DNA of 44,937 bases, taken from the NCBI GenBank assembly GCA_025700225.1, contig GCA_025700225.1_4339.1. The stretch is one strand, 5' to 3'. The notes under the pieces were generated by a model. The model had not been told where the DNA came from. It ran no database searches and worked only from the letters and a program-made list of their open reading frames with translations. Source of the stretch: a phage. Below, one piece after another: positions 2,841-40,873 of this stretch (its first letter is position 1; the number at the start of each line of letters is the position of its first letter). The position numbers were made by a program, and so were the translations under genes.

Positions 2841-2875
2841 AATGAATAGTAGCCTATTCTATCTTAGTGTGCAAG
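2841..2875 (-). promoter_or_regulatory. promoter-operator motif copy (GAATAG-N4-CTATTC palindrome; TTGCAC...TAGAAT read leftward)
   Basis: member of the repeated motif family; sits 25-60 nt upstream of the leftward gene start at 2814. Confidence 0.5.
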
Positions 2876-4675: not shown

Positions 4676-4721
4676 TTCGATAAGTGAATAGTAGCCTATT
4701 ATATTGGTATGTGCAAGCGAA
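4676..4721. promoter_or_regulatory. promoter-operator motif copy in divergent control region
   Basis: tcgataaGTGAATAGtagcCTATTATATTggtatgtgcaag; near-identical to the copy at 37505-37556 in the opposite orientation. Confidence 0.55.
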
Positions 4722-4892
4722 GATTCGTTGCCGTTGTGATTCTTTGGAGGAGGGTTGTGCCTTTATTCTTTTTACTTGGTAACTAGAGGGCAGGCCTTAA
4801 GGCCTGCCCAATAATAGTTACATTTTTACGGTTGCGAATCTACGGCACTTTAAGAAAATCAGTTACTTAGTAACTTTGAGGGATTTTTACAA

Positions 4893-5035
4893 TAGACTAT
4901 GGCCCTTCCGAACGCGTCAGCGTAACTACACTCAGGACTAACGTCCCGCTCCGTTACATGCCGCGCCGCGGTCGCTTGCTCATACTTCACAAGCTCATGT
5001 GGAGCTTACCATATTTTTAAGTAAAAGTCAATACC
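4893..5035. repeat. conserved ~140-bp non-coding element, copy A (candidate structured RNA / cis-regulatory leader)
   Basis: about 85% identical to 37311-37455 in the same orientation; no ORF; hairpins with compensatory changes. Confidence 0.6.
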
Positions 5036-8387: not shown

Positions 8388-8415
8388 TGATATGTGAATA
8401 GTAGCATATTAATTT
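8388..8415 (-). promoter_or_regulatory. promoter-operator motif copy upstream of XRE gene
   Basis: gtGAATAGtagcATATTA 20-50 nt upstream of the XRE RBS. Confidence 0.4.
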
Positions 8416-8429
8416 TTTGATAAAAAGCG

Positions 8430-8458
8430 TTGACAGGTGAATAGTTGGCTATTATAGT
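8430..8458 (+). promoter_or_regulatory. consensus sigma70 promoter with embedded palindromic operator
   Basis: TTGACA-N17-TATAGT; spacer contains GAATAG-ttgg-CTATTA; divergent from the XRE gene. Confidence 0.7.
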
Positions 8459-11604: not shown

Positions 11605-11629
11605 CACCTGAATAGTTAGCTATTATAGT
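11601..11629 (+). promoter_or_regulatory. consensus sigma70 promoter with embedded palindromic operator
   Basis: TTGACA-N17-TATAGT with GAATAG-ttag-CTATTA in the spacer; 55 nt upstream of the SSB-like gene. Confidence 0.7.
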
Positions 11630-15054: not shown

Positions 15055-15335
15055 CCCCGGAAGGCAAAATACAGAAATACGCGAAAGAGCGATTCGAGGC
15101 CCTCGGAGGCCTCGTTAGAAAATTGTCGTACGAAAATAGAGTAGGCGCCCCCGACCTGTTAGTAATCCTCCCCGGCGGCATCATCTGGTTCGTCGAGGTG
15201 AAGAAAGACGAAAATACGAAGCCAGACCCGCACCAGCTACGTGAGCACGAACGGCTGCGTAAACGCGGTGCAAATGTTTTTGTCGTTGGCTCGTTTAAAC
15301 AGGTTGACGACCTAATAGCAAACTATTATAGTTAG
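15051..15335 (+). CDS. VRR-NUC domain nuclease (PD-(D/E)XK)
   Basis: about 94 aa; GAPDLLVILPGG...FVEVKKDE carries the D...EVK signature; frequent partner of SNF2 helicases in phages. Confidence 0.75.
   Translation: MTPEGKIQKYAKERFEALGGLVRKLSYENRVGAPDLLVILPGGIIWFVEVKKDENTKPDPHQLREHERLRKRGANVFVVGSFKQVDDLIANYYS
15304..15332 (+). promoter_or_regulatory. consensus-like sigma70 promoter with perfect palindrome TAATAG-N4-CTATTA
   Basis: TTGACG-N17-TATAGT inside the 3' end of the VRR-NUC gene, 35 nt upstream of the next gene. Confidence 0.55.
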
Positions 15336-17966: not shown

Positions 17967-17997
17967 AAAAGGCCCCGTTTGGGGCCTTATTTTTTTT
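17967..17997. terminator. bidirectional intrinsic terminator at the convergent junction
   Basis: stem aaggcccc/ggggcctt followed by T8 on plus; placed between the end of the rightward operon and the tail-fibre stop. Confidence 0.75.
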
Positions 17998-27867: not shown

Positions 27868-27905
27868 ACTTGCACACCCCAATATAATAGGGCACTATTC
27901 ACCTG
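27868..27905. promoter_or_regulatory. promoter-operator motif copy (TTGCAC...TATAAT rightward; TAATAG-N4-CTATTC palindrome)
   Basis: 35 nt upstream of the plus-strand island gene at 27924; reverse reading faces the chaperone gene. Confidence 0.55.
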
Positions 27906-27923
27906 TAACTTACTGAGGAAATA

Positions 27924-28253
27924 ATGATGCGTAAATTAGTATTAGCTCTGGGGTTTATGTCTTTTGCTGCTTTCGGGTCCCCGTGCGAACAGGTATTTAG
28001 TGAATCTGTTCTTATGACTTCTGGCGTGCTTGAGAAAGCCGACATTACTATCGTAAAGGCATTTAGGGACTCTACAGTTCGTGAATGCGAGGCCGCCGTA
28101 GAGGTCGGTAAATCAGGCCTACCTCCGCAGGCCGTAACATACACGGTAATACGTTCGGTAGAGAAAAACGGGGACGCGTTTTACAGCCTACTGACAGCCA
28201 CCCGCCTGCAAATGGTAGTGACCGGATGGGCAATAGGCGCAGAAAGTAAATAG
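27924..28253 (+). CDS. secreted/periplasmic hypothetical protein (signal peptide)
   Basis: 109 aa; N-terminus MMRKLVLALGFMSFAAFG; two Cys; RBS GAGGA. Confidence 0.6.
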   Translation: MMRKLVLALGFMSFAAFGSPCEQVFSESVLMTSGVLEKADITIVKAFRDSTVRECEAAVEVGKSGLPPQAVTYTVIRSVEKNGDAFYSLLTATRLQMVVTGWAIGAESK

Positions 28254-28318
28254 TCGCCTTTATTTAAATGAATGCACTGTGGTTAAATAGGACAAATCCT
28301 AAACACGAGGAAGTAGGC

Positions 28319-29449
28319 ATGGCCCAGAAGAAAATAACCGACGAACAGTTACAGGAAGAATTGAACGCCGGGATGAAGAATATCGATATCGCCCGTAAAT
28401 ACGGAATCTCAGACCGCGTTATCCGAATCCGTAAAGCGAAGCTGGCGAAGAAAGGTGTAGGCCACGGGCGAGACGTAAGCCACCTTGTACCAGACGGCTA
28501 CAAAATTAAAGGCACGTCGTCTCTGGTGGACGAGTTCGGCAACACCAAATTGCAGTGGGTTAAGACCGACACTGATGCCGAACGGCAGGTCGAGTTGATG
28601 AAAGCTGTAATCGAGGGCATGAAGTCAGAGATTACGCCCGTTGCGCCAGTTAAGGCCGCCAGGACTAAACGCGACGACAAGCTGCTTAACCTGTACACCG
28701 TGTCTGATTTCCATCTCGGCATGTTAGCCTGGGCGGACGAGAGCGGCGACGACTGGGATATGAAAATCGCGGAGGACTTATTTTCACGATGGTTTGACGC
28801 GGCATTCCAGAAAGCACCGGATGCCGGTACGGGAGTTATTAATCTTCTTGGCGACTTAGCTCACTTCGATAGTCTGGATGCCGTTACGCCCGCAAGCGGT
28901 CATGTCCTTGACGCTGACACGCGCTACCAGAAACTTGTTCGCTACATGATTCGCATGGTGCGCCGTGTCGTCGATATGGCACTGGTTAAACATAAGACTG
29001 TTCGCTTGCTTATAGTTCAGGGAAACCACGACGAATCCGGGATGATTTGGCTGGCGGAGATGTTTAGCACACTGTATGACAACGAGCCTCGTGTATTCGT
29101 CGATACGTCGCCGGATGTATATAAGATGGTGCAACACGGCAAAACTACGCTGTTCTTTCACCACGGACATAAGGCACGCTTCGACGCAATCGAGCCTGTT
29201 ATGATTGCCAAGTTCCGCAAAGCGTTCGGCGAGAGCGTCTACAGTTACGCTCATGTAGGCCACCTTCACCACCAGAAGATTGTCGAAAGCCGTAACATGG
29301 TTGTTGAACAACACCGCACCCTGGCTGCTAAAGACGCCTACGCCTCACGCGGCGGATGGATGTCAGGACGAAGTGCAAACGTAATTACTTATAGCGACCA
29401 ATACGGCGAGGTTGCTCGTTTAACTATTTCACCGGAGATGTTGGGATGA
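28319..29449 (+). CDS. calcineurin-like metallophosphoesterase with N-terminal HTH-like region
   Basis: about 376 aa; SDFHLG (DxH), GDLAHFD (GDxxD), GNHDE, FHHGH, GHLHH; N-terminus IDIARKYGISDRVIRIRKAK; start at ATG 28319 with GAGGAAG RBS. Confidence 0.78.
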   Translation: MAQKKITDEQLQEELNAGMKNIDIARKYGISDRVIRIRKAKLAKKGVGHGRDVSHLVPDGYKIKGTSSLVDEFGNTKLQWVKTDTDAERQVELMKAVIEGMKSEITPVAPVKAARTKRDDKLLNLYTVSDFHLGMLAWADESGDDWDMKIAEDLFSRWFDAAFQKAPDAGTGVINLLGDLAHFDSLDAVTPASGHVLDADTRYQKLVRYMIRMVRRVVDMALVKHKTVRLLIVQGNHDESGMIWLAEMFSTLYDNEPRVFVDTSPDVYKMVQHGKTTLFFHHGHKARFDAIEPVMIAKFRKAFGESVYSYAHVGHLHHQKIVESRNMVVEQHRTLAAKDAYASRGGWMSGRSANVITYSDQYGEVARLTISPEMLG

Positions 29450-29934
29450 AAGATATTGTGATTTTCGATTTAGACGGGACATTGGCGGATGGTACTCATC
29501 GTTTACACCTGCTGCCAAAAGACAACTACGGCGAAACCTGGGCGTGGAAGCCTTTTAACATGGCCTGTAAAGATGATGCGCCGATATATGACAACATTCA
29601 CTTGTGCAACACGCTGTGGCACACGGGGATAACCATAATCATACTTACCGGGCGAAGCGACGACGCCGAAGAAGAAACCCGGGAGTGGTTACACAAAAAC
29701 AATGTCAAGTTCGACGTTCTGTTAATGCGTAGCAAACATGACAACAGAAAAGACATCGTAATTAAAGAAGAAGTGTTGCGCGCTATCGGGTTAGAAAGAA
29801 TCTTGTGCGCGTTCGACGATTCGCCCGCGGTGATTAAGCATTTCCGCAGCTTAGGAATCACTACGCACGCGGTTACGGAATACGACTGCAACGGTACTTC
29901 TACACACTTAAAATCACACGGGGGCGATAAATAA
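29446..29934 (+). CDS. HAD-family phosphatase resembling the T4 Pnk 3'-phosphatase domain
   Basis: 162 aa; motif I FDLDGTL, motif II ILTGR, Lys motif, FDDS; C-terminal stretch RKDIVIKEEV...FDDSPAVIKHF parallels T4 Pnk as recalled from memory; ATGA-coupled. Confidence 0.75.
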   Translation: MKDIVIFDLDGTLADGTHRLHLLPKDNYGETWAWKPFNMACKDDAPIYDNIHLCNTLWHTGITIIILTGRSDDAEEETREWLHKNNVKFDVLLMRSKHDNRKDIVIKEEVLRAIGLERILCAFDDSPAVIKHFRSLGITTHAVTEYDCNGTSTHLKSHGGDK

Positions 29935-30488
29935 TGGCTAAGGTAATCATTCTTAACGGCCCTGCAGGTTGCGGTAAAGATACGCTCGCTATGGCGCTGG
30001 TAGAAATGGGCTTCGCGAAAGGAACAACCAGCTTCAAGAATCCAATGTTCAATATCGCTCTCGCGGCATTAGGGCCGGATGCCTATCACGAGTTCCTCGA
30101 TGGTTACGACGACCGGGCGCGGAAAGAAAAGCCAGAAGATTTTCTAAACGGTCTGTCGCGACGTCAGTTCATGATTGCTATCTCTGAACAATTCATTAAA
30201 CCGGTATTTGGTAGTGAGTATTTCGGCAAGTATCTAGCCGAAAACTTGCCCGACGGCGACGAAATTTTCGTAGTGTCCGACGGCGGATTTGCCAGTGAAG
30301 TAGCCCCTATCGTCGCCGCAGGGCATGATGTGCGAATCGTTCGCCTTCATCGTGACGGGTACACGTTTGACGGTGATAGCAGGGGATATCTGTACGATGT
30401 TAGTGGTGTAAAAGATTACGAAGCCTACATCATACCCGGTGACGTTAAATCTAACGTTATAGACATCGCTTTAAAATTAGGTTTGTAA
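29934..30488 (+). CDS. P-loop kinase, dNMP-kinase-like (T4 gp1-like)
   Basis: 184 aa; Walker A GPAGCGKDT; overall pattern resembles phage deoxynucleoside monophosphate kinases; TAATG-coupled. Confidence 0.7.
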   Translation: MAKVIILNGPAGCGKDTLAMALVEMGFAKGTTSFKNPMFNIALAALGPDAYHEFLDGYDDRARKEKPEDFLNGLSRRQFMIAISEQFIKPVFGSEYFGKYLAENLPDGDEIFVVSDGGFASEVAPIVAAGHDVRIVRLHRDGYTFDGDSRGYLYDVSGVKDYEAYIIPGDVKSNVIDIALKLGL

Positions 30489-30516
30489 GAAAAAGGCCCC
30501 GAGAGGGGCCTTAGTT
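30488..30516. terminator. bidirectional intrinsic terminator
   Basis: stem aaggcccc/ggggcctt, loop gaga; T-rich flank on both strands; between kinase stop and major tail protein stop. Confidence 0.75.
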
Positions 30517-34816: not shown

Positions 34817-34875
34817 AATTTACCTCTTAGTAAATGAAAAGAGGGACCGAAGTCCCTCTCGATTATAACTTAACC

Positions 34876-35925
34876 TTAAGCCCCTACACCAGTTACCAGG
34901 AAGGCAATCGGTACATGCTTACGATCAACAACGCGGTTCCAGTTGGAGGCGTTCGACAGGTCCTGCCAGGAAGCAGAGCGGGCTACGGTTTCAGTACCGT
35001 TACCGGTGATTACCGCGCTGGTGAAGCTGTAACCCAGCGGATGCAGCAACCAGGTCTTACGGGTCCACAAGGTTTCGACGCCACCGCCGTTACCGCGAGA
35101 TGCTTCGCGCTCGTATTCCAGTGGATTAGACGGATTGCCTTCGCCATAACCGATAGCGCCGTTGCCGAAGATGATGGAGATGAACTTACGGCTAGAGCCG
35201 GTGCCAACTACAGTCATGCTGTCGTCAACAATCACACGGTAGCCCTGGTAGGTGGCAAACATGGTGTTGTTGTCGGCGTCGCGGATGAAGTCAATAAGCT
35301 GCTGCTTACGCGCCTGTGCATACACAAAGCTATGCATCGCGATTGCACCCAGCACTTCACCACCGTTACCCATCAGAGCATCGCCCATAGTCTGGGTGGC
35401 GTCGATAAACGCGCCGGAGTCGAAGCCCAGAGTTGCAGACACGTCGATAACCATGTCGTTCTGCTCGTGGTAAGCATCGGTTGCGGACACGTTGTCGTTA
35501 TACAGGCCGAGAGCGGTGGCAATCAGACGACGCTGCGCCTGACGCTGCCAGAAGTTATCCAGACGAGCGGCAACAGATTGAAGCGGGTTCTGGCTGGTCA
35601 GTTCAACGGTCAGGTCGGCCTGCCCGAAACCTTCGTTCAGATAAGCGACGCGTGCCATCATCTCGCCGGTTTGTACGTTGCGCGGGGTTGCGATGTCCTG
35701 ATACACGTCGTTCGAGTAGTTCGGCTCGATAGAGGTATCAATCGCTTTCCAGAAAGGAATATTAGCGATGTTGGACGGGCCGCGAGCAATCTCTGCAGCG
35801 TACGGGGTCGGGGTCAGGATGCCGGACTGGAAGAACGCAGTTTTCTCTACCGGGTCCTCAGTCATATAAGACAGAAGGACGGGTACGTTGCCAGTTACGA
35901 TATCGCCGATAGTGGTAATTGCCAT
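34876..35925 (-). CDS. major capsid protein
   Basis: 349 aa; follows scaffold gene; strong RBS context. Confidence 0.8.
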   Translation of the reverse strand: MAITTIGDIVTGNVPVLLSYMTEDPVEKTAFFQSGILTPTPYAAEIARGPSNIANIPFWKAIDTSIEPNYSNDVYQDIATPRNVQTGEMMARVAYLNEGFGQADLTVELTSQNPLQSVAARLDNFWQRQAQRRLIATALGLYNDNVSATDAYHEQNDMVIDVSATLGFDSGAFIDATQTMGDALMGNGGEVLGAIAMHSFVYAQARKQQLIDFIRDADNNTMFATYQGYRVIVDDSMTVVGTGSSRKFISIIFGNGAIGYGEGNPSNPLEYEREASRGNGGGVETLWTRKTWLLHPLGYSFTSAVITGNGTETVARSASWQDLSNASNWNRVVDRKHVPIAFLVTGVGA

Positions 35926-35927
35926 TA

Positions 35928-36629
35928 TTATTTCCTCAGGGCTTTAAGTTGCCGTTCAAATTCGGCAGGGTTCGATTTGTACAGAGCTAAACGCTCCGCT
36001 TCGTTCATGTCTTTAAACGCTGGTGCGGCCCCGCCGCCTTTGCCACCGGAAGCCCCGCCGCCGGAAGCTGCATTTGCTTTAATCAAATGCGAAAACGCTT
36101 TGTGTTCACGCAGGTATTTGCGGAACTGTTCAGGGTCAGTCGTGATTACATTGCCATCTGCACCGACAAACTTAGTAACCACATCATCGCCCTCAAACTC
36201 AGTCTTAACGAACGGAGCAAGAATGTCTACTGCTTCCGGTGTAATGAAGTCACCCGCGAAAGAGCCTAACACTGCTTTACGTTCGCTGCCGAGGATGCGC
36301 TCTGCCATTTTGGAGATGCGACCGTCTTTCTCGGCTAACACCGGGTCATACTGGCTACGAATCGTCTTTTCGAACTCGTCCATCTTACCAGCGGCTTTTA
36401 ACGCCTCCTGGTGTGCGCGCTGCCGTTCTTCTTCGGCCTCTTTTGCTTTACGAGCAGCTTCTTTCTTCTCGTTCAGCAATGCTTCCTGGTTAGCCTTAAG
36501 CCCGGCAACTTCTTTCTCAATCAGCGCCTGAACTTCTTCGGCTGTGTACATTTTAGGAGCGTCACCGCCACCTGATTTATCTTCTGCCCCAGCTTCTTCC
36601 TGGAACGGATAACGTAAAAAACGATTCAT
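35928..36629 (-). CDS. scaffolding protein
   Basis: about 233 aa; charged coiled-coil EEVQALIEKEVAGLKANQEALLNEKKEAARKAKEAEEERQRAHQEALK; directly upstream of capsid gene; start ATG 36629 (track extends to a TTG at 36683). Confidence 0.6.
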   Translation of the reverse strand: MNRFLRYPFQEEAGAEDKSGGGDAPKMYTAEEVQALIEKEVAGLKANQEALLNEKKEAARKAKEAEEERQRAHQEALKAAGKMDEFEKTIRSQYDPVLAEKDGRISKMAERILGSERKAVLGSFAGDFITPEAVDILAPFVKTEFEGDDVVTKFVGADGNVITTDPEQFRKYLREHKAFSHLIKANAASGGGASGGKGGGAAPAFKDMNEAERLALYKSNPAEFERQLKALRK

Positions 36630-36711
36630 AGTCAGTATGTCCCCTGGACGTTGGAATCCGGGCCACCCGGATTTACATGTCAAGAATAAATTATTCCAAC
36701 ATGCAAGGCAA

Positions 36712-36975
36712 CTATTCCAGAATATTCCTTACATAATCCTGCAACATGAACACTTTCAGACGCAGTTGCCGTACACATTCGGCGTTCTGGACATCAATAG
36801 CTAAATCCTCGTCAGCGTCGTTACTTGGTGAGGCCAGCTTGCACGGAGGCTGCATCATCGTCGTATCCGGGGATGGAATTAGCGTTTGCGACGGCGCGAG
36901 ATTTGAGCAGGACGCGAGCATCATCGAAAGTGCACACGCTGCGGCCGGGCGTTTTAATGTACTTAACGACTTCAC
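36712..36975 (-). CDS. Rz1: o-spanin (Rz1-like outer-membrane lipoprotein), overlapped with Rz
   Basis: 87 aa in the +1 frame of Rz; lipobox LASC after signal peptide; Pro-rich mature region; GTG start with GAGG. Confidence 0.55.
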   Translation of the reverse strand: MKSLSTLKRPAAACALSMMLASCSNLAPSQTLIPSPDTTMMQPPCKLASPSNDADEDLAIDVQNAECVRQLRLKVFMLQDYVRNILE

Positions 36976-37207
36976 GGGTGATTACCTCAGATTCAGTCTT
37001 GCCTTTGGAATCGGCGGCGGCGGCCTTAGATTCATCCTGCTGCTGCCGTTGTGTTTTCTTCGCTAACTCAGCCTGTGCTTTCCGCTGTTGCTGCGAAACG
37101 AGATTCGCCCGACCTTCGTTCCAGCCGCTGCGATACTGGTAGATTCCGTAGCCGTATGTCAGGAGGATGAAACATGCTCCTGCTACGACAGTTGCGTTAA
37201 GATTCAT
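36821..37207 (-). CDS. Rz: i-spanin (Rz-like)
   Basis: 128 aa; N-terminal TM VVAGACFILLTYGYGIY, then Gln/Ala/Lys-rich periplasmic coiled-coil; RBS AAAGGAGAAAC. Confidence 0.65.
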   Translation of the reverse strand: MNLNATVVAGACFILLTYGYGIYQYRSGWNEGRANLVSQQQRKAQAELAKKTQRQQQDESKAAAADSKGKTESEVITREVVKYIKTPGRSVCTFDDARVLLKSRAVANANSIPGYDDDAASVQAGLTK

Positions 37208-37229
37208 GTTTCTCCTTTCTCGATAAGTA

Positions 37230-37255
37230 AAGCCCCGCCCTAAAGCGGGGCGCTA
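37230..37255 (-). terminator. GC hairpin upstream of Rz (attenuator/terminator on minus strand)
   Basis: stem gccccgc/gcggggc; on the minus strand followed by TTTACTTATC and then the Rz RBS. Confidence 0.45.
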
Positions 37256-37310
37256 GTCCTTATCATTTAAACATAGAAACGGCGTAATCTTAAGATAATT
37301 CTCAGACAAG

Positions 37311-37455
37311 TAGACTGGCGGCCTTCCGGATACGTCAGCGGAACTACACTCAGTGCTTACGCACCGCTCCGTTCCCTGCCGCAACGCGGTCGCTTGCGAT
37401 AACTCACAAGCTCAGGTGGAGCTTAGCATATTTTTAGTGAAAAGTCAACTATTAG
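37311..37455. repeat. conserved ~140-bp non-coding element, copy B
   Basis: about 85% identical to 4893-5035, same orientation; stem positions covary. Confidence 0.6.
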
Positions 37456-37504
37456 AATAGTTTTATTCCATTTTTACAATTGAGTGTAATAATTGGAATA
37501 GTCG

Positions 37505-37556
37505 GTATCTGTGCTTGCGTACACCAATATAATAGGGTACTATTCACTTATCGAAA
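37505..37556. promoter_or_regulatory. promoter-operator motif copy (near-identical to 4676-4721, inverted)
   Basis: TATAAT at 37527-37532 facing the plus gene at 37578; TAATAG-N5-CTATTC palindrome. Confidence 0.55.
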
Positions 37557-37577
37557 CGAGAGATAAGGAACTTAAAT

Positions 37578-37790
37578 ATGAAAGAATTAATTATCGCGAT
37601 ATTGCTGACATTGGCAGTTTCACTGGTAATTGCTGCTGGTATACGTAGCTTAGATAAACACGGGTGTGAGAACTACGGAGATATCACAGGCCGAGAGGTA
37701 ATGTATAGTTACACAACTTGTTATGTAAAAACTGATAGGGGGTTTATCCCTCGTGAAGAACTTAATTTTAGAGCAGCGACACATGAATAA
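37578..37790 (+). CDS. small membrane-anchored protein (moron)
   Basis: 70 aa; N-terminal TM/signal MKELIIAILLTLAVSLVIAAG; RBS AAGGAA; lone plus-strand gene with own promoter and terminator inside the leftward virion operon. Confidence 0.6.
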   Translation: MKELIIAILLTLAVSLVIAAGIRSLDKHGCENYGDITGREVMYSYTTCYVKTDRGFIPREELNFRAATHE

Positions 37791-37792
37791 AA

Positions 37793-37820
37793 CTAAGGCC
37801 CCATAACGGGGCCTTTTATC
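37793..37820. terminator. bidirectional intrinsic terminator
   Basis: stem aaggcccc/ggggcctt, loop ataac; followed by TTTTATCATT. Confidence 0.65.
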
Positions 37821-38280
37821 ATTCCGGCTTAGTAACCTTCGCCGCTTTACTCACGGCCTCTACGCCATCGGCATCGGTAACTTTCACGAAGTATTCGCCT
37901 ACCGCGTTTACTGTCAGAGACAAAGCCTCTTCTGGCGCGTTGACAACTTCCTTCCCGTCTTTGTACCAGGTCAGTGAATACGGCGCTTTACCCGCCTTAA
38001 CTTCTACCGTGATTACCGCACTTCCGTCTACCAGTTCCGCGTCTTTCGGTTGCACAGAGAAATACACGTCACCAGCGTCTTCCAGATACGGAATCTCGTA
38101 GAGCATACCCGCTGCCGTTAGCGCAATACCGGTTTTATCTGCGTACGGCATCTCGTCTACAGGTGTACCCAGTACACTTTCATCTTCAACGTAGGTCACG
38201 TTCTCGCCGGAGCCTGACACGCGGGCGTACTGGACAACACGGCGCGACGGAACATCGGTTACTTTGAAAAAGCCCATCAT
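37819..38280 (-). CDS. Ig-like domain virion protein
   Basis: 153 aa; C-terminal YSLTWYKDGK...GEYFVKVTDADG resembles Ig-like domains. Confidence 0.55.
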   Translation of the reverse strand: MMGFFKVTDVPSRRVVQYARVSGSGENVTYVEDESVLGTPVDEMPYADKTGIALTAAGMLYEIPYLEDAGDVYFSVQPKDAELVDGSAVITVEVKAGKAPYSLTWYKDGKEVVNAPEEALSLTVNAVGEYFVKVTDADGVEAVSKAAKVTKPE

Positions 38281-39323
38281 TATTCCCCTTTCAGATAATC
38301 AGCAACACGTTTATCGAGTTCCGCCATCTGCTTAAGCGTCAGCGGATTCCCGAAACCATCTACAGATATTACGCGAAACTCTTCCGGCGATATACCGCTG
38401 TTGCGGAAAATCTTACCGCGCACCGGGCCTAACGCCTGGTCCTGAAACCACGCTGGTTGTTGCTTAAGGAACTCATAGTAAGTGGTGTCCGCGCTTACTT
38501 GCGTACCGCCATCAGCGCCCCTAGCCGCACGTTTTGCGCCAGCGTCGAGAAAATCGAACTCTGAACTGATTACGGGTGCTGTGGTACTTCGGCAGTTCGG
38601 ATGGGCTGGGGGCATAGGGCCTTTACCAATTTCCCATGTCATGCCATCTCTGGCCCTGCATATTGTGCTGGTACGGCTGTCCAGCGTAGACACCCACTCG
38701 TATTTCTCAATGATGTCGCTGTTCTGCCTGTAAGTCTCGTTGCGGGCTTCGTTAGATATGTGCGAAAGCGCGGTGCGGATTACGGTAGCGGCATTGCGTT
38801 CGGAGATGTCCGCCAGTCCGCCAGAGCCGACCACACTTTTAACAATCTGCCGTGTTGTCTGGCCCTGTACAAAGCCCATCTTAACGCCAGTTATGAGGCG
38901 TGATACCTCCGTTTCACCCCAGCCTTCCATCAGTTTAGTGAAATCAACTGGCTTGTCGTTTAGCGCCAGTGGTTGAAACACGGCGGCGGACCACACCTGT
39001 TCAGCGGTCGGGGTAACAAATTCCGCATTAACGTTAGCCGTGAGTGTCTTCACATTCCACTCAGCCTCATACGCTGCAAGCTCCTTAAGGTCTTCTGTCA
39101 ACTTCGTTTGCCAGCCACCCGTAAGCCCTGTCAGCGCTTCTTCCAGGTCGCGTAACAGTTTATTCAGCCGCGCGGTGCTTCTCCCGTCGTCACCGAACAA
39201 TAGCACCTGCCGTTTGATTTCGTCGCGCATCTCCTGAATGAAAGGCGCAAGGTCTTTCACTTCACCAGATGCGTTGCGTTGCAGCCAAATCTGGTGGCTG
39301 ATTAAGGATGTTAGTAAGCTCAT
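38280..39323 (-). CDS. head morphogenesis protein (Mu F / SPP1 gp7 family)
   Basis: 347 aa; conserved STLDSRTSTICRARDG...HPNCRST signature of the minor head protein family; follows portal. Confidence 0.85.
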   Translation of the reverse strand: MSLLTSLISHQIWLQRNASGEVKDLAPFIQEMRDEIKRQVLLFGDDGRSTARLNKLLRDLEEALTGLTGGWQTKLTEDLKELAAYEAEWNVKTLTANVNAEFVTPTAEQVWSAAVFQPLALNDKPVDFTKLMEGWGETEVSRLITGVKMGFVQGQTTRQIVKSVVGSGGLADISERNAATVIRTALSHISNEARNETYRQNSDIIEKYEWVSTLDSRTSTICRARDGMTWEIGKGPMPPAHPNCRSTTAPVISSEFDFLDAGAKRAARGADGGTQVSADTTYYEFLKQQPAWFQDQALGPVRGKIFRNSGISPEEFRVISVDGFGNPLTLKQMAELDKRVADYLKGE

Positions 39324-39391
39324 AAATAACCCTGTGGCGCTAAAGTTAATAGCATACTATAAGAAAGCCCCTTTCGGGGCTACAGGTGAAC

Positions 39392-40873
39392 TTATTGCTG
39401 GGCGGCGTCCTGCTGTTGCGCCGACTGCGGAATCTCGCCAGTTACCTGAGTAACCGCACCCAACGGCACAGGAGCGTCCTCAATCGCTGTTGTAATCTCC
39501 TCGTCGGTCCAGTCAGTCACCCCGGCCTTACGCAACGCGGCGTAGTAAGCAGTTGCAGGTAGTAAACCGGCGTTAATGTCCGCCATCCACTGCGCACGGT
39601 CTTGCGCGGTCATCGGTTGCAGGAAGAATTCCATATTCAGCTTGAACTCAATCTCCGTGCCTTCGCGTAGCCCCAGCATAGCAGCTACCCAACGCAACGC
39701 CTCTGTGTACGCCATGCTTACGTTACGTGCAATGGTTGCCATTACGGACGTATCAGCGCCGCGTTGCAGGCGGGCAGATTCAGCGGTGATTTGCTGCGTC
39801 GGGGTGATAAGCTGCGCGCCAATCTGGATTGCCTGATTCTCTTTATCCAGCATGTTCTGCTTGGCAAGGTTGTTCTCTCCTGCCTGAACCAGAAACGCAT
39901 TGCCGCCGTAGCCGATGTTATGGCCCGAACGCGACCCCATGCGCACACCGTGTGGGTTAGCTTCTTTCCACTGTTTCATGCTCATATTCTCACCGGGGGC
40001 GATGAACAGAGTTGGCTGACCCACAACGAAGCTGGATTCCTCATTGTCCGCGCTGTTACGGAAATGCCCAATATTAAGCTCGGCCAACGGCAGCAAAGGT
40101 GCATCGTCAATGGTTGCATCGTTGTTGCTTGCACCAATGAACGTGAACGGGATTTTGCCGCGCAACTGTTCGCCGAGTTCCGGGAATATTTCAATTACGT
40201 CTCCCTGGGCACCACCTTCGGCGTCGAAGCGGTAAATGCGCTGGCGGTAGCGCCCGTCAATCAAATCGAGAACGCGGTATTGCTCACCGAATTTGGTCTC
40301 AAATTCCGCGCCAGGCTCAGAGTATTCCCACACCTCGCGCAACACAACCATTGTCACGCGGTTAACTGAACCAACGCGAGTCAGCCGCCAGTTGATGATG
40401 TTCTCTGCGGTATAGAATGCGATGACCGGGTTTAATAACCCTGCGTTCTGTTCGGCTGCCGTTGCGGCGGCGGTCTCCGGGGCGTCCACCAGCAACCCGC
40501 CACGGCCTATCGAGTTAATCTCCATCAGCGTATCCTGCGCGTGCTGCCACAGCCCGACACCTGAACCGTCAGCATTGTGCAACAGGTACTCAAGTTCAGG
40601 CGGGATAATCTGCTCAGGGTCTTTGCGCATCACTGACCCCGTCATCCCCGCCAGCGTGCGTTTGGTGAAATTGTAGCAGATAGCGCCGTTCTCGTATTCT
40701 TCCTGTCGCTGTGCTGCGTAGGTCTGGTCAGGCTCGTTCTTCCCGACGTTGCGCAGATAGCGGATAAGGTCGCCTTCAAGAGCGTGGCGTACCTTCTGCC
40801 ATTTATCGAAGTGATGCAGCCATTCCCGGTGTTTTGTCTTAACACCCTGATTCTGACCGTTCATAGTTAACAT
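39392..40873 (-). CDS. portal protein
   Basis: 493 aa; immediately downstream of large terminase and upstream of the Mu F-like gene. Confidence 0.78.
   Translation of the reverse strand: MLTMNGQNQGVKTKHREWLHHFDKWQKVRHALEGDLIRYLRNVGKNEPDQTYAAQRQEEYENGAICYNFTKRTLAGMTGSVMRKDPEQIIPPELEYLLHNADGSGVGLWQHAQDTLMEINSIGRGGLLVDAPETAAATAAEQNAGLLNPVIAFYTAENIINWRLTRVGSVNRVTMVVLREVWEYSEPGAEFETKFGEQYRVLDLIDGRYRQRIYRFDAEGGAQGDVIEIFPELGEQLRGKIPFTFIGASNNDATIDDAPLLPLAELNIGHFRNSADNEESSFVVGQPTLFIAPGENMSMKQWKEANPHGVRMGSRSGHNIGYGGNAFLVQAGENNLAKQNMLDKENQAIQIGAQLITPTQQITAESARLQRGADTSVMATIARNVSMAYTEALRWVAAMLGLREGTEIEFKLNMEFFLQPMTAQDRAQWMADINAGLLPATAYYAALRKAGVTDWTDEEITTAIEDAPVPLGAVTQVTGEIPQSAQQQDAAQQ

What the first reader, a model, noticed from the sequence alone, without database searches (positions are those of the whole stretch)
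37505..37820. Self-contained moron encoding a small membrane protein between head genes
The gene at 37578-37790 is the only rightward gene in a 25-kb leftward virion operon. It has a TATAAT-containing promoter copy directly upstream, a good RBS and its own bidirectional terminator (37793-37820), and encodes a 70-aa protein with one N-terminal TM/signal segment and two Cys. Independently transcribed small membrane proteins of this kind in phages are often superinfection-exclusion or host-envelope modifying factors.
Basis: partly seen in the sequence, partly recalled or inferred. Interest (0 to 1): 0.45.

Follow-up and report, generated by a model that had tools for sequence, protein, structure and literature searches.

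The report
Swappable accessory gene slot in phage
A small membrane-protein gene sits in a promoter-plus-terminator "socket" among the head genes of an E. coli phage; related phages fill that socket with other genes or leave it empty, so the gene is an optional add-on, and its function is untested.

Summary
The window is a Kagunavirus-like (Guernseyvirinae) siphophage. The 70-aa ORF at 37578-37790(+) is real, with a good RBS, a repeated promoter/operator module upstream and a bidirectional terminator downstream. It is under purifying selection and is compositionally foreign (39% GC against 50.7%).

Of 333 related phage records, only EC3-1 carries this gene. Eleven other genomes examined at the same site hold unrelated cargo or none. 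A 73%-identical copy sits in a different socket, with the same promoter, 5'UTR and terminator. Moron status is therefore well supported.

Two claims fail. It is not the only rightward gene: a second rightward island at 27924-30488 uses the same promoter and terminator modules. The virion block is probably not one operon.

The protein belongs to a large uncharacterised family of 67-107-aa proteins, found so far only in phage genomes or phage-like contigs (939 clusters at E<=0.001). It has an N-terminal membrane helix and a small domain with two conserved Cys. The AF2 model has pLDDT 90. There is no Pfam, NCBIfam, PADLOC or PDB match.

An envelope or superinfection-exclusion role is plausible, because the sister phage drives a T4 Imm homologue from the same promoter module. 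That role is untested.

The parts
37514..37547 (+). Repeated promoter/operator module CTTGCGTACACCAATATAATAGGGTACTATTCAC. It contains TATAAT (37528-33), the palindrome AATAG-N4-CTATT (37531-37544), and a possible weak sigma-70 pair TTGCGT (37515-20) - 17 nt - TACTAT (37538-43).
   Evidence: Six matches at <=3 mismatches against 0 expected. Repeat families D2, D8 and D16. The core is invariant in 11 of 12 relatives examined. Each of the four same-type copies lies about 44-51 nt upstream of an ATG in the same orientation. The motif was reported as a 7-copy PHIRE motif in fBC-Eco01 (PMC9825357). Read on the other strand it is TCGATA-17-TATATT.
37548..37577 (+). 5' UTR with RBS AAGGA (37565-37569), 8 nt before the ATG.
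   Evidence: Sequence. The same UTR and RBS travel with the gene into another slot in L024.
37578..37790 (+). Cargo CDS of 70 aa. TM helix at about residues 4-22. Conserved C30-x2-Y33-x3-T37-G-R39 ... C48-Y-V-K-T ... I57-P58-R-x-E61.
   Evidence: ORF. PHROG hits 26710, 18961 and 27356 at E 6e-12 to 1.5e-7. Homologues. Alignments. dN/dS 0.14-0.67. AF2 pLDDT 90.3. GC 39%, GC3 31%.
37795..37815 (.). Bidirectional intrinsic terminator AAGGCCCC-ATAAC-GGGGCCTT, shared by the moron and the convergent Hoc-like gene.
   Evidence: The same core AGGCCCC-N-GGGGCCT occurs at 17970-17987 and 30494-30511, against 0 expected. It is conserved in relatives whatever the cargo.
37208..37513 (-). Backbone regulatory region divergent from the moron. 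Leftward sigma-70-like promoter TTGACT (37448-37443) - 17 nt - TAAGCT (37425-37420). Conserved structured leader (about 37413-37300). Hairpin 37251-37232. The Rz start follows at 37207.
   Evidence: Conserved across Kagunavirus and partly in phiEap-2. Duplicated at 4889-5031. The minus-strand fold has z -2.4 against +0.4 for the plus strand. Seven pairs show compensatory changes and there are many G-U pairs on the minus strand. The promoter hexamers were read from the sequence.
27869..30511 (+). Second socket of the same design. Promoter module 27869-27902, four rightward genes 27924-30488, terminator core 30494-30511.
   Evidence: In EC3-1 this socket starts with an Imm_superinfect gene.
37819..38280 (-). 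Right flank of the slot: Hoc-like head-decoration gene (153 aa).
   Evidence: phrog_3945, E 1e-84.
36712..37207 (-). Left flank of the slot: overlapped spanin pair, Rz (36821-37207) and Rz1 (36712-36975).
   Evidence: phrog_2536 at E 1e-54; phrog_5672 and phrog_1267.

Best explanation
The locus is an accessory expression cassette (a moron). It is plugged into one of several standard 'sockets' in the Kagunavirus backbone. Each socket is a repeated promoter/operator module pointing against the structural genes, closed by a repeated bidirectional terminator. Cargo genes are gained, lost, replaced and moved between sockets, probably by recombination at these repeats.

This cargo encodes a 70-aa single-pass inner-membrane protein of a large, uncharacterised family found so far only in phage contexts. 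A membrane helix continues into a small three-strand-plus-helix domain that carries two conserved cysteines.

Inferred steps:
1. The module shares its palindromic operator with the early promoters and heads the leftward early operons, so the gene is probably made early from host RNA polymerase under a phage regulator.
2. The conserved Cys pair suggests the domain faces the periplasm and is disulfide-bonded.
3. There it most likely binds an envelope or incoming-phage component. This would protect the infected cell from secondary infection or envelope damage, that is, superinfection exclusion in the style of T4 Imm/Sp or HK97 gp15.

Likelihoods: accessory mobile cassette encoding a membrane protein, about 0.9. 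Acts at the envelope, about 0.6. Specifically superinfection exclusion, about 0.3.
For: Shown:
- The gene is present in 1 of 333 related phage records.
- Twelve genomes share an invariant promoter core and terminator. The cargo between them is 11 bp (empty), 143, 177, 234, 249, 274, 316, 396, 540 or 568 bp, encoding unrelated products.
- A 73%-identical copy lies between the MuF and portal genes in L024, with the same promoter, UTR, RBS and terminator, while no gene is called in the Rz/Hoc gap there.
- A Jersey-like homologue lies on the other side of the spanins, with a canonical TTGACA-17-TAATAT promoter and its own terminator.
- GC is 39% against 50.7% (lowest 1.5% of 213-nt windows). GC3 is 31% against 55-65%.
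- dN/dS is 0.14-0.24 at dS of about 0.9, and amino-acid changes lie mostly in the TM segment.
- The family comprises 939 representative clusters at E<=0.001, and the best 150 are all 67-107 aa. C30, Y33, T37, C48 and E61 are invariant or nearly so.
- The AF2 model is confident: pLDDT 90.3, helix 2-37, strands 41-44/47-52/55-58, helix 59-68.

Context for an envelope or exclusion role:
- The same module drives an Imm_superinfect protein (51 bits, cut-off 27.9) in EC3-1, and a signal-peptide protein in this window.
- Other cargoes in this slot include a lipoprotein and TM peptides.
- Family members elsewhere sit among early or replication genes in Dhillonvirus, Acinetobacter T4-like phages and others.
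- The module also heads the leftward early genes at 4717-4670 and 2875-2828.
Against: - No expression data exist. In the moron orientation the module is a poor sigma-70 match: TATAAT has no -35, and TTGCGT-17-TACTAT scores 3/6 and 4/6. The scan called a promoter only on the opposite strand.
- The module persists in the empty slot of BEU33, so it may serve the backbone rather than the cargo.
- Topology is undecided. K/R counts on the two sides of the helix are equal across 186 family members. Cys30-Cys48 proximity could not be measured because the tool returns no coordinates.
- No similarity to any known exclusion, lysis or defence family. No fold match in PDB.
- Other cargoes in the same slot are soluble proteins or an HNH-like protein, so slot membership does not imply an envelope role.
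Confidence: 0.55

Rival explanations
1. Host-takeover or counter-defence factor. The protein binds a host inner-membrane protein, for example a membrane-anchored defence effector, a cell-division or envelope-biogenesis enzyme, or the O-antigen/capsule export or polymerisation machinery. This would favour the phage's own cycle rather than exclude other phages.
For: - The family occurs in many phages of groups described as virulent, and usually among early genes.
- A narrow pattern scan found no relatives in 185,579 representative bacterial genomes, which argues against a lysogenic-conversion role.
- The neighbouring socket carries RNA-repair-like genes typical of counter-defence.
- Kagunavirus phages depend on surface glycans (PMC11990801).
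Against: - No homology to any known anti-defence or takeover protein.
- The gene is rare within Kagunavirus (1 of 333).
- No candidate host partner has been identified.
Confidence: 0.25
2. Lysis modulator. A periplasm-facing, membrane-anchored partner of the spanins or holins that tunes lysis timing or blocks premature spanin action.
For: - In three Guernseyvirinae lineages the gene directly flanks the Rz/Rz1 pair: upstream in Kagunavirus and phiEap-2, downstream in the Jersey-like contig.
- In podovirus contig L009 it lies near a convergent chitinase-like gene and a TM-protein gene.
- Its conserved Cys pair recalls the cysteines known to be functionally important in spanins (established knowledge, not tested here).
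Against: - In L024 the gene lies between MuF and portal, away from the spanins.
- In Dhillonvirus and T4-like phages it is among replication genes.
- It is transcribed opposite to the spanins, from an early-type module.
- 332 of 333 relatives lack it, and one has an empty slot.
- No PHROG lysis family matches it.
Confidence: 0.12
3. No benefit to the phage. The ORF is hitch-hiking or decaying filler in a recombination hotspot, or it is a minor virion or assembly protein.
For: The slot tolerates any content, including nothing. Some cargoes look like remnants, such as a 27-aa peptide in M01.
Against: - Purifying selection, with dN/dS down to 0.14.
- A nearly invariant C-terminal domain across six Kagunavirus-type copies.
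- 939 family clusters with conserved motif positions, and a confident fold.
- Absence from almost all relatives excludes a core virion role.
Confidence: 0.05

Closest known systems
HK97 gene 15 moron (gp15, YebO-like inner-membrane superinfection-exclusion protein; PMC3594210)
   Same: Both are small single-gene insertions inside a virion gene block, absent from close relatives, compositionally atypical, with their own promoter and terminator. Each product is a small inner-membrane protein (for HK97; here).
   Different: No YebO-type Pfam match at E<=1; the gp15 sequence was not compared directly. The host phage here appears virulent: no integrase in EC3-1, and fBC-Eco01 is described as lacking lysogeny genes. 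Expression from a prophage therefore does not apply. The exclusion phenotype is untested.
PeSL mobile regulatory cassettes of T4-type phages (Arbiol et al. 2010, PMC2839356; PMC4122927)
   Same: Repeated composite promoter and stem-loop terminator motifs bracket non-essential ORFs of unknown function. Differences between close relatives are insertions, deletions and replacements bounded by the motifs. An empty slot is simply promoter plus stem-loop.
   Different: This is a siphovirus with only 2-3 sockets, embedded antisense in the structural block. PeSLs occur in long hyperplastic regions. The promoter motif carries a palindromic operator and is not a strong sigma-70 consensus. Promoter and terminator activity and mini-circles have not been shown here.
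T4 Imm (Pfam PF14373 Imm_superinfect) and T4 Sp (spackle)
   Same: They are small, early-expressed envelope proteins of a virulent phage that block secondary infection (established knowledge). An Imm-family gene is driven by the same promoter module in sister phage EC3-1.
   Different: The 70-aa protein does not match PF14373 or any other Pfam family. It has one TM helix plus a beta-rich domain, which is a different architecture.
T4 RI antiholin / lambda Rz i-spanin type bitopic periplasmic lysis proteins
   Same: An N-terminal membrane anchor with a small Cys-containing domain presumed to be periplasmic. The gene lies next to the spanin genes in Guernseyvirinae.
   Different: No match to any PHROG lysis family. 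The gene is on the opposite strand, under an early-type promoter. It is not linked to lysis genes in most other phage groups.

Membership tests
Moron (Juhala/Hendrix definition, as summarised in PMC3594210) | Extra DNA present in one phage but absent from closely related genomes | tested here: met
   Only EC3-1 of 333 related records has it. The slot is empty in BEU33 and holds other cargo in 10 genomes.
Moron (Juhala/Hendrix definition, as summarised in PMC3594210) | Own promoter | tested here: inconclusive
   A conserved repeated module lies 45 nt upstream and travels with the gene to another slot. It is a weak sigma-70 match and was not called by the scan. It also persists in the empty slot. 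The Jersey-like homologue has a canonical TTGACA-17-TAATAT. There are no transcript data.
Moron (Juhala/Hendrix definition, as summarised in PMC3594210) | Own terminator | tested here: met
   A predicted bidirectional intrinsic terminator starts 4 nt after the stop codon, at -15.4 kcal/mol. This is a prediction only.
Moron (Juhala/Hendrix definition, as summarised in PMC3594210) | Nucleotide composition different from neighbours | tested here: met
   GC 39% against 50.7%; GC3 31% against 55-65% in flanking genes.
Moron (Juhala/Hendrix definition, as summarised in PMC3594210) | Expressed from a repressed prophage to the host's benefit | not testable with these tools
   The relatives appear virulent: no integrase in EC3-1, and fBC-Eco01 is reported to lack lysogeny genes. 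This criterion probably does not apply.
Superinfection-exclusion proteins (T4 Imm, PF14373, and other families present in Pfam/NCBIfam) | Sequence membership in a described exclusion family | tested here: not met
   No Pfam hit at E<=1 other than a sub-threshold PapR match. None for 64 family members. No NCBIfam hit.
Superinfection-exclusion proteins (functional class) | Expression blocks infection or DNA entry by the same or other phages | not testable with these tools
   This needs EOP, adsorption and DNA-entry assays.
PeSL-like mobile regulatory cassettes | Repeated promoter and stem-loop motifs bracketing variable non-essential ORFs | tested here: met
   Promoter module copies. Terminator core copies. 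Variable cargo.
PeSL-like mobile regulatory cassettes | Exchange between motif copies moves ORFs within or between genomes | tested here: met
   The same gene, with the same UTR, is found in the Rz/Hoc slot (window, L025, L027, L028) and in the MuF/portal slot (L024). The recombination mechanism is inferred.
PeSL-like mobile regulatory cassettes | Demonstrated promoter and terminator activity; mini-circle formation | not testable with these tools
   Experimental.
PHROG families 26710 / 18961 / 27356 (unknown function) | Significant match to the family HMM | tested here: met
   E 5.6e-12, 1.9e-8 and 1.5e-7, each covering nearly the whole protein.
Phage lysis proteins (holin, antiholin, spanin) | Match to a lysis family profile | tested here: not met
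   No PHROG lysis family at E<=0.1. The neighbouring Rz and Rz1 do match.

The most novel reading that the evidence does not exclude
Two linked ideas remain open.

1. Kagunavirus genomes may carry a standardised plug-in system: identical promoter/operator and terminator 'sockets' at 2-3 fixed points in the structural block, which capture and shuffle accessory genes. This would be a siphovirus counterpart of T4 PeSLs.

2. The 70-aa TM-plus-Cys-pair family (939 clusters, no Pfam entry, no solved fold relative) may be a new and widespread class of early envelope effectors of virulent phages, for example a new superinfection-exclusion family.

Separately, the duplicated structured leader beside the slot could be a new cis-regulatory RNA controlling read-through into the spanin and head genes.
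Probability: 0.3. Interest if true: 0.6.

Novelty: new member of a known kind. Interest (0 to 1): 0.4.

Why it matters
The locus gives a clean natural experiment. Near-isogenic phages differ only in what fills a defined promoter-terminator socket, and one has an empty socket. The contribution of each cargo to exclusion, lysis timing or host range can therefore be tested by simple swaps.

The cargo here represents a large family that has no annotation and no solved-structure relative, and has so far been seen only in phage contexts. Assigning it a function would annotate hundreds of phage genes. That includes genes in phage groups studied for therapy, such as Kagunavirus, Dhillonvirus and Acinetobacter T4-like phages.

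The sockets are also ready-made, evolution-tested sites for inserting payloads into a small siphovirus chassis.

Tried and rejected
- Rfam, whole window at gathering threshold and 37150-37900 at E<=5: nothing credible.
- Pfam, NCBIfam and PADLOC on the protein and its relatives: nothing.
- BFVD returned only uncharacterised phage proteins.
- The afdb50 library was unavailable.
With the close alignment it found no relatives, but its patterns were narrow, so prophage members of the wider family are not excluded.
- Positive-inside analysis of 186 family members did not resolve the topology.
- The literature search found no study of this gene or slot. The fBC-Eco01 paper lists only the repeated motif.
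- A cleavable signal peptide was considered and judged unlikely. The model shows one continuous helix over residues 2-37, and no cleavage motif stands out in the alignments.
- A type IV pilin-like protein was considered. No PDB match reached significance, and no prepilin-type leader was seen.
- The 43-aa minus-strand ORF 37253-37384, annotated as a 36-38-aa protein in relatives, was rejected as a gene. Its start codon varies (ATG, GTG, TTG), an indel shifts the frame, and the C-terminus differs in the window.

Full report
**Identity of the window.** Megablast of 36600-38400 finds 333 phage records, mostly Escherichia and Salmonella Guernseyvirinae. The closest is Escherichia phage EC3-1, at 89.5% identity over 100% of the query. 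Most other records cover only 87% of the query, in two pieces. The EC3-1 annotation and PHROG scans give the local gene order on the minus strand: terminase, portal (39392-40873), Mu-F head morphogenesis (38280-39323) and a Hoc-like decoration protein (37819-38280). The finding comes next. Beyond it lie Rz (36821-37207), Rz1 (36712-36975), scaffold (35928-36683), major capsid (34876-35925) and the tail genes.

**Check of the observation.**
- The ORF 37578-37790(+) encodes 70 aa from an ATG.
- AAGGA lies 8 nt upstream of the ATG.
- TATAAT is at 37528-37533.
- A GC-rich hairpin at 37795-37815 has T-runs on both strands. It folds at -15.4 and -15.9 kcal/mol, with z-scores of -2.7 and -3.7.
- The hairpin fills the 28-nt gap between the moron stop codon and the stop codon of the convergent Hoc-like gene.
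- The protein has one strongly hydrophobic segment (residues 4-22) and two Cys.

These points are confirmed. The statement that this is the only rightward gene in a 25-kb leftward operon is wrong. Four contiguous rightward genes occupy 27924-30488:
- a 109-aa protein with a signal peptide (phrog_14165);
- a metallophosphoesterase-like protein;
- a PNKP-type HAD phosphatase;
- a kinase.

**The promoter module.** TATAATAGGGTACTATTCA matches six sites at <=3 mismatches, against 0 expected. Four copies share a longer module, CTTGCRYAC..CCAATATAATAGGSYACTATTCA. Each lies about 44-51 nt upstream of an RBS and ATG in the same orientation:
- 37514-37547(+), the moron;
- 27869-27902(+), the second rightward island;
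- 4717-4670(-) and 2875-2828(-), the leftward early genes.

The module contains a palindrome, AATAG-N4-CTATT. The same palindrome sits in the spacer of the canonical TTGACA-17-TATAGT promoters of the rightward early genes at 8425, 11596 and 15299. The fBC-Eco01 paper reports the motif as a seven-copy PHIRE hit and attributes it to a phage RNA polymerase. No RNA polymerase gene is annotated in EC3-1.

In the moron orientation the sigma-70 fit is poor. TATAAT has no -35, and the alternative is TTGCGT-17-TACTAT. The scan called only the opposite strand, TCGATA-17-TATATT. 'Promoter' is therefore an inference from repetition, conservation and constant spacing to start codons. The shared operator suggests co-regulation with early genes.

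**Comparative evidence for a swappable slot.** An alignment with EC3-1, fBC-Eco01, Bas76 and phiEap-2 shows three zones. The upstream region is conserved up to about 37560, the terminator is conserved, and the sequence between them is unrelated. I then extracted the interval between the promoter core and the terminator in twelve genomes:

| Genome | Interval | Content |
|---|---|---|
| BEU33 | 11 bp | empty |
| M01 | 143 bp | 27-aa TM peptide |
| EcoPhCCP1 | 177 bp | 41 aa |
| Bas76 | 234 bp | 67-aa acidic protein |
| window, EC3-1 | 249 bp | this gene |
| LM08P2 | 274 bp | 81 aa |
| LM02P1 | 316 bp | 97 aa |
| hz69 | 396 bp | 55 aa |
| fBC-Eco01 | 540 bp | 33-aa TM peptide plus 114-aa lipoprotein |
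| UTEC10 | 568 bp | 179-aa HNH-like protein |

A tblastn search of 50,697 phage records finds the gene in Kagunavirus only in EC3-1, at 96% identity. Metagenomic and SRA contigs add a few close variants at 73-89% identity. Three of these (L025, L027, L028) sit in the same slot.

The fourth, L024 (73% identity), sits between the MuF and portal genes. It has the same promoter core, the same 5'UTR and RBS (…TATAATAGGGTACTATTCAGTTATCGAAACGAGAGATAAGGAATTTAAAGATG) and the same type of terminator. In L024 no gene is called in the Rz/Hoc gap. That MuF/portal position is a third socket. It carries other cargo in fBC-Eco01, L025, L027 and L028. In the window it holds only a hairpin.

A Salmonella Jersey-like contig carries a 36%-identical homologue (alignment identity). 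It lies on the other side of the spanin pair, with a canonical TTGACA-17-TAATAT promoter and its own terminator. phiEap-2 has a 49% homologue in the Kagunavirus position.

The terminator core AGGCCCC-N-GGGGCCT occurs three times in the window, against 0 expected. Each copy lies where a rightward unit meets leftward genes: 17970, 30494 and 37796.

The gene has 39% GC against 50.7% for the window. That places it in the lowest 1.5% of 213-nt windows. Its GC3 is 31% against 55-65% in neighbouring genes.

All sequence-testable moron criteria, as summarised in PMC3594210, are therefore met. The exception is proof of promoter activity. The architecture closely parallels the PeSL cassettes of T4-type phages, which are promoter plus stem-loop repeats mediating modular shuffling (PMC2839356).

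**The gene is a real protein-coding gene.** Pairwise dN/dS among six Kagunavirus-type copies is 0.14-0.67. It is lowest (0.14-0.24) at the largest divergence, dS of about 0.9. Replacements lie mostly in the membrane segment, while residues 29-70 are almost invariant.

**The protein family.**
- PHROG profiles 26710, 18961 and 27356, all of unknown function, match at E 6e-12 to 1.5e-7.
- A profile search of 5.8 billion proteins gives 41 relatives.
- An exhaustive HMM search of 1.84 billion cluster representatives gives 939 clusters at E<=0.001 and 90 at E<=1e-10. The best 150 are all 67-107 aa with a single architecture.
- Conserved positions are C30, Y33, T37(G-R), C48(Y/W-V), I/P57-58 and E61.
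- Members occur in Dhillonvirus next to HNH, ligase-like and Dam genes, and in Acinetobacter T4-like phages between regA and the DNA polymerase gene.
- They also occur among early hypothetical genes in other phages, and in 9NA, Titan-X, CBB, Cronobacter and Proteus phages by structural match.
- A narrow pattern scan of 185,579 representative bacterial genomes found none.
- No Pfam, NCBIfam or PADLOC model matches.

The continuous helix argues for an uncleaved membrane anchor. Charge bias does not decide orientation: mean K/R is 1.27 on the N side and 1.37 on the C side across 186 members. The invariant Cys pair, with no other conserved metal ligands, is the only argument for a periplasmic, disulfide-bonded domain. 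That is an inference.

**Function.** Nothing here tests function. Context favours an early-expressed envelope factor, for four reasons.
- The promoter module is shared with the early leftward operons.
- In EC3-1 the same module drives a protein that passes the Pfam threshold for Imm_superinfect (51 bits against 27.9). The window has no Imm homologue.
- Cargoes of these sockets include a lipoprotein, TM peptides and a secreted protein.
- Family members elsewhere lie among early genes.

I therefore rank superinfection exclusion or envelope protection first, at about 0.3. A membrane-directed takeover or counter-defence role follows at about 0.25. A lysis or spanin modulator comes third at about 0.12. 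That last idea rests on adjacency to Rz/Rz1 in three Guernseyvirinae lineages, and is contradicted by L024 and by the other phage groups. A non-functional or virion role is unlikely, at about 0.05.

**Surroundings that change the picture.** The 370-bp region left of the moron is not empty spacer. On the minus strand it holds:
- a sigma-70-like promoter, TTGACT(37448-37443)-17-TAAGCT(37425-37420), with a TG two bases upstream of the -10;
- a conserved leader of about 110 nt;
- a strong hairpin at 37251-37232 (-17.2 kcal/mol);
- the Rz RBS immediately after the hairpin.

A stretch of about 140 nt covering the promoter and leader is duplicated at 4889-5031, in the early control region, at about 81% identity. 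That second copy is 90-93% identical to the Rz-side copies of other Kagunavirus phages. It is absent from the EC3-1 early region, so it looks recently acquired.

The minus-strand RNA folds better than shuffled sequence (z -2.4), while the plus strand does not (z +0.4). The consensus structure has seven pairs with compensatory changes and several G-U pairs possible only on the minus strand. The small ORF annotated there in relatives is not conserved in frame or start codon.

The moron therefore sits in an inter-operon gap, back to back with what is probably the promoter and leader of the spanin-head-tail transcription unit.

**Verdict.** The 'only rightward gene' and 'single operon' statements are wrong. 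The functional suggestion remains a reasonable, untested hypothesis. This is a new member of a known kind of element, and its cargo family is large and unannotated.

Noticed in passing
window 27869-30511: A second rightward island has the same promoter module and terminator core. It encodes a 109-aa signal-peptide protein (phrog_14165), a metallophosphoesterase-like protein, a PNKP-type HAD phosphatase and a kinase. This looks like an RNA- or nucleotide-repair (counter-defence-like) set. In EC3-1 the island instead begins with an Imm_superinfect gene and also holds an HNH endonuclease.
   Followed up: partly
window 37300-37448 and 4889-5031: A non-coding element of about 140 nt is duplicated. 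It comprises a minus-strand sigma-70-like promoter (TTGACT-17-TAAGCT) and a structured leader with compensatory base changes, followed by a hairpin before Rz. There is no Rfam match. The 4.9-kb copy resembles other phages' Rz-side copies (90-93%) more than the window's own copy (81%), and it is absent from the EC3-1 early region. It may be a cis-regulatory or read-through control RNA.
   Followed up: partly
window 2843-2861, 4685-4703, 8389-8411, 8438-8456, 11609-11627, 15299-15333, 27883-27901, 37528-37546: The palindromic operator-like motif AATAG-N4/5-CTATT overlaps the -10 region of both the canonical early promoters and the socket modules. This suggests one phage regulator controls them all. 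The motif was reported as a 'phage RNAP promoter' motif in fBC-Eco01, although no RNAP gene is annotated in EC3-1.
   Followed up: partly
window 36712-36975 (-): The o-spanin ORF read from the GTG at 36975 gives 87 aa with a proper lipoprotein signal (…MMLASC). The 47-48-aa versions annotated in EC3-1, fBC-Eco01 and the Bas phages start at MMQPPC, after the lipobox, and would lack a signal peptide. They are probably mis-started.
   Followed up: partly
window 39324-39391; L002 4584-; L024 2451-2740; L027 4303-; L028 3657-: A third socket lies between the MuF and portal genes. In the window it holds only a hairpin (AAAGCCCCTTTCGGGGCT) and no promoter module. In relatives it carries the promoter module plus varied cargo, including a gene annotated as a sliding clamp in fBC-Eco01 and the 70-aa family member in L024.
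   Followed up: partly
window 37253-37384 (-); L002 2203-2319; L003 2203-2313: A small hypothetical ORF annotated in relatives inside the leader region is not conserved. Its start codon is ATG, GTG or TTG, an indel shifts the frame, and the window has a different C-terminus. It is probably not a gene.
   Followed up: yes
L018 (BEU33) 1241-1290; L014 (UTEC10) 1283-1822: These are the extremes of slot content. In BEU33 the promoter core is followed 11 bp later by the terminator, a natural empty socket. UTEC10 carries a 179-aa HNH-like ORF (motif HIDHMLPL…N) with no Pfam hit at E<=0.01.
   Followed up: partly
window 34834-36531 (+): A 565-aa open frame runs antisense to the capsid and scaffold genes. 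It was not scanned for homologues. It is most likely an artefact of codon bias on the opposite strand.
   Followed up: no
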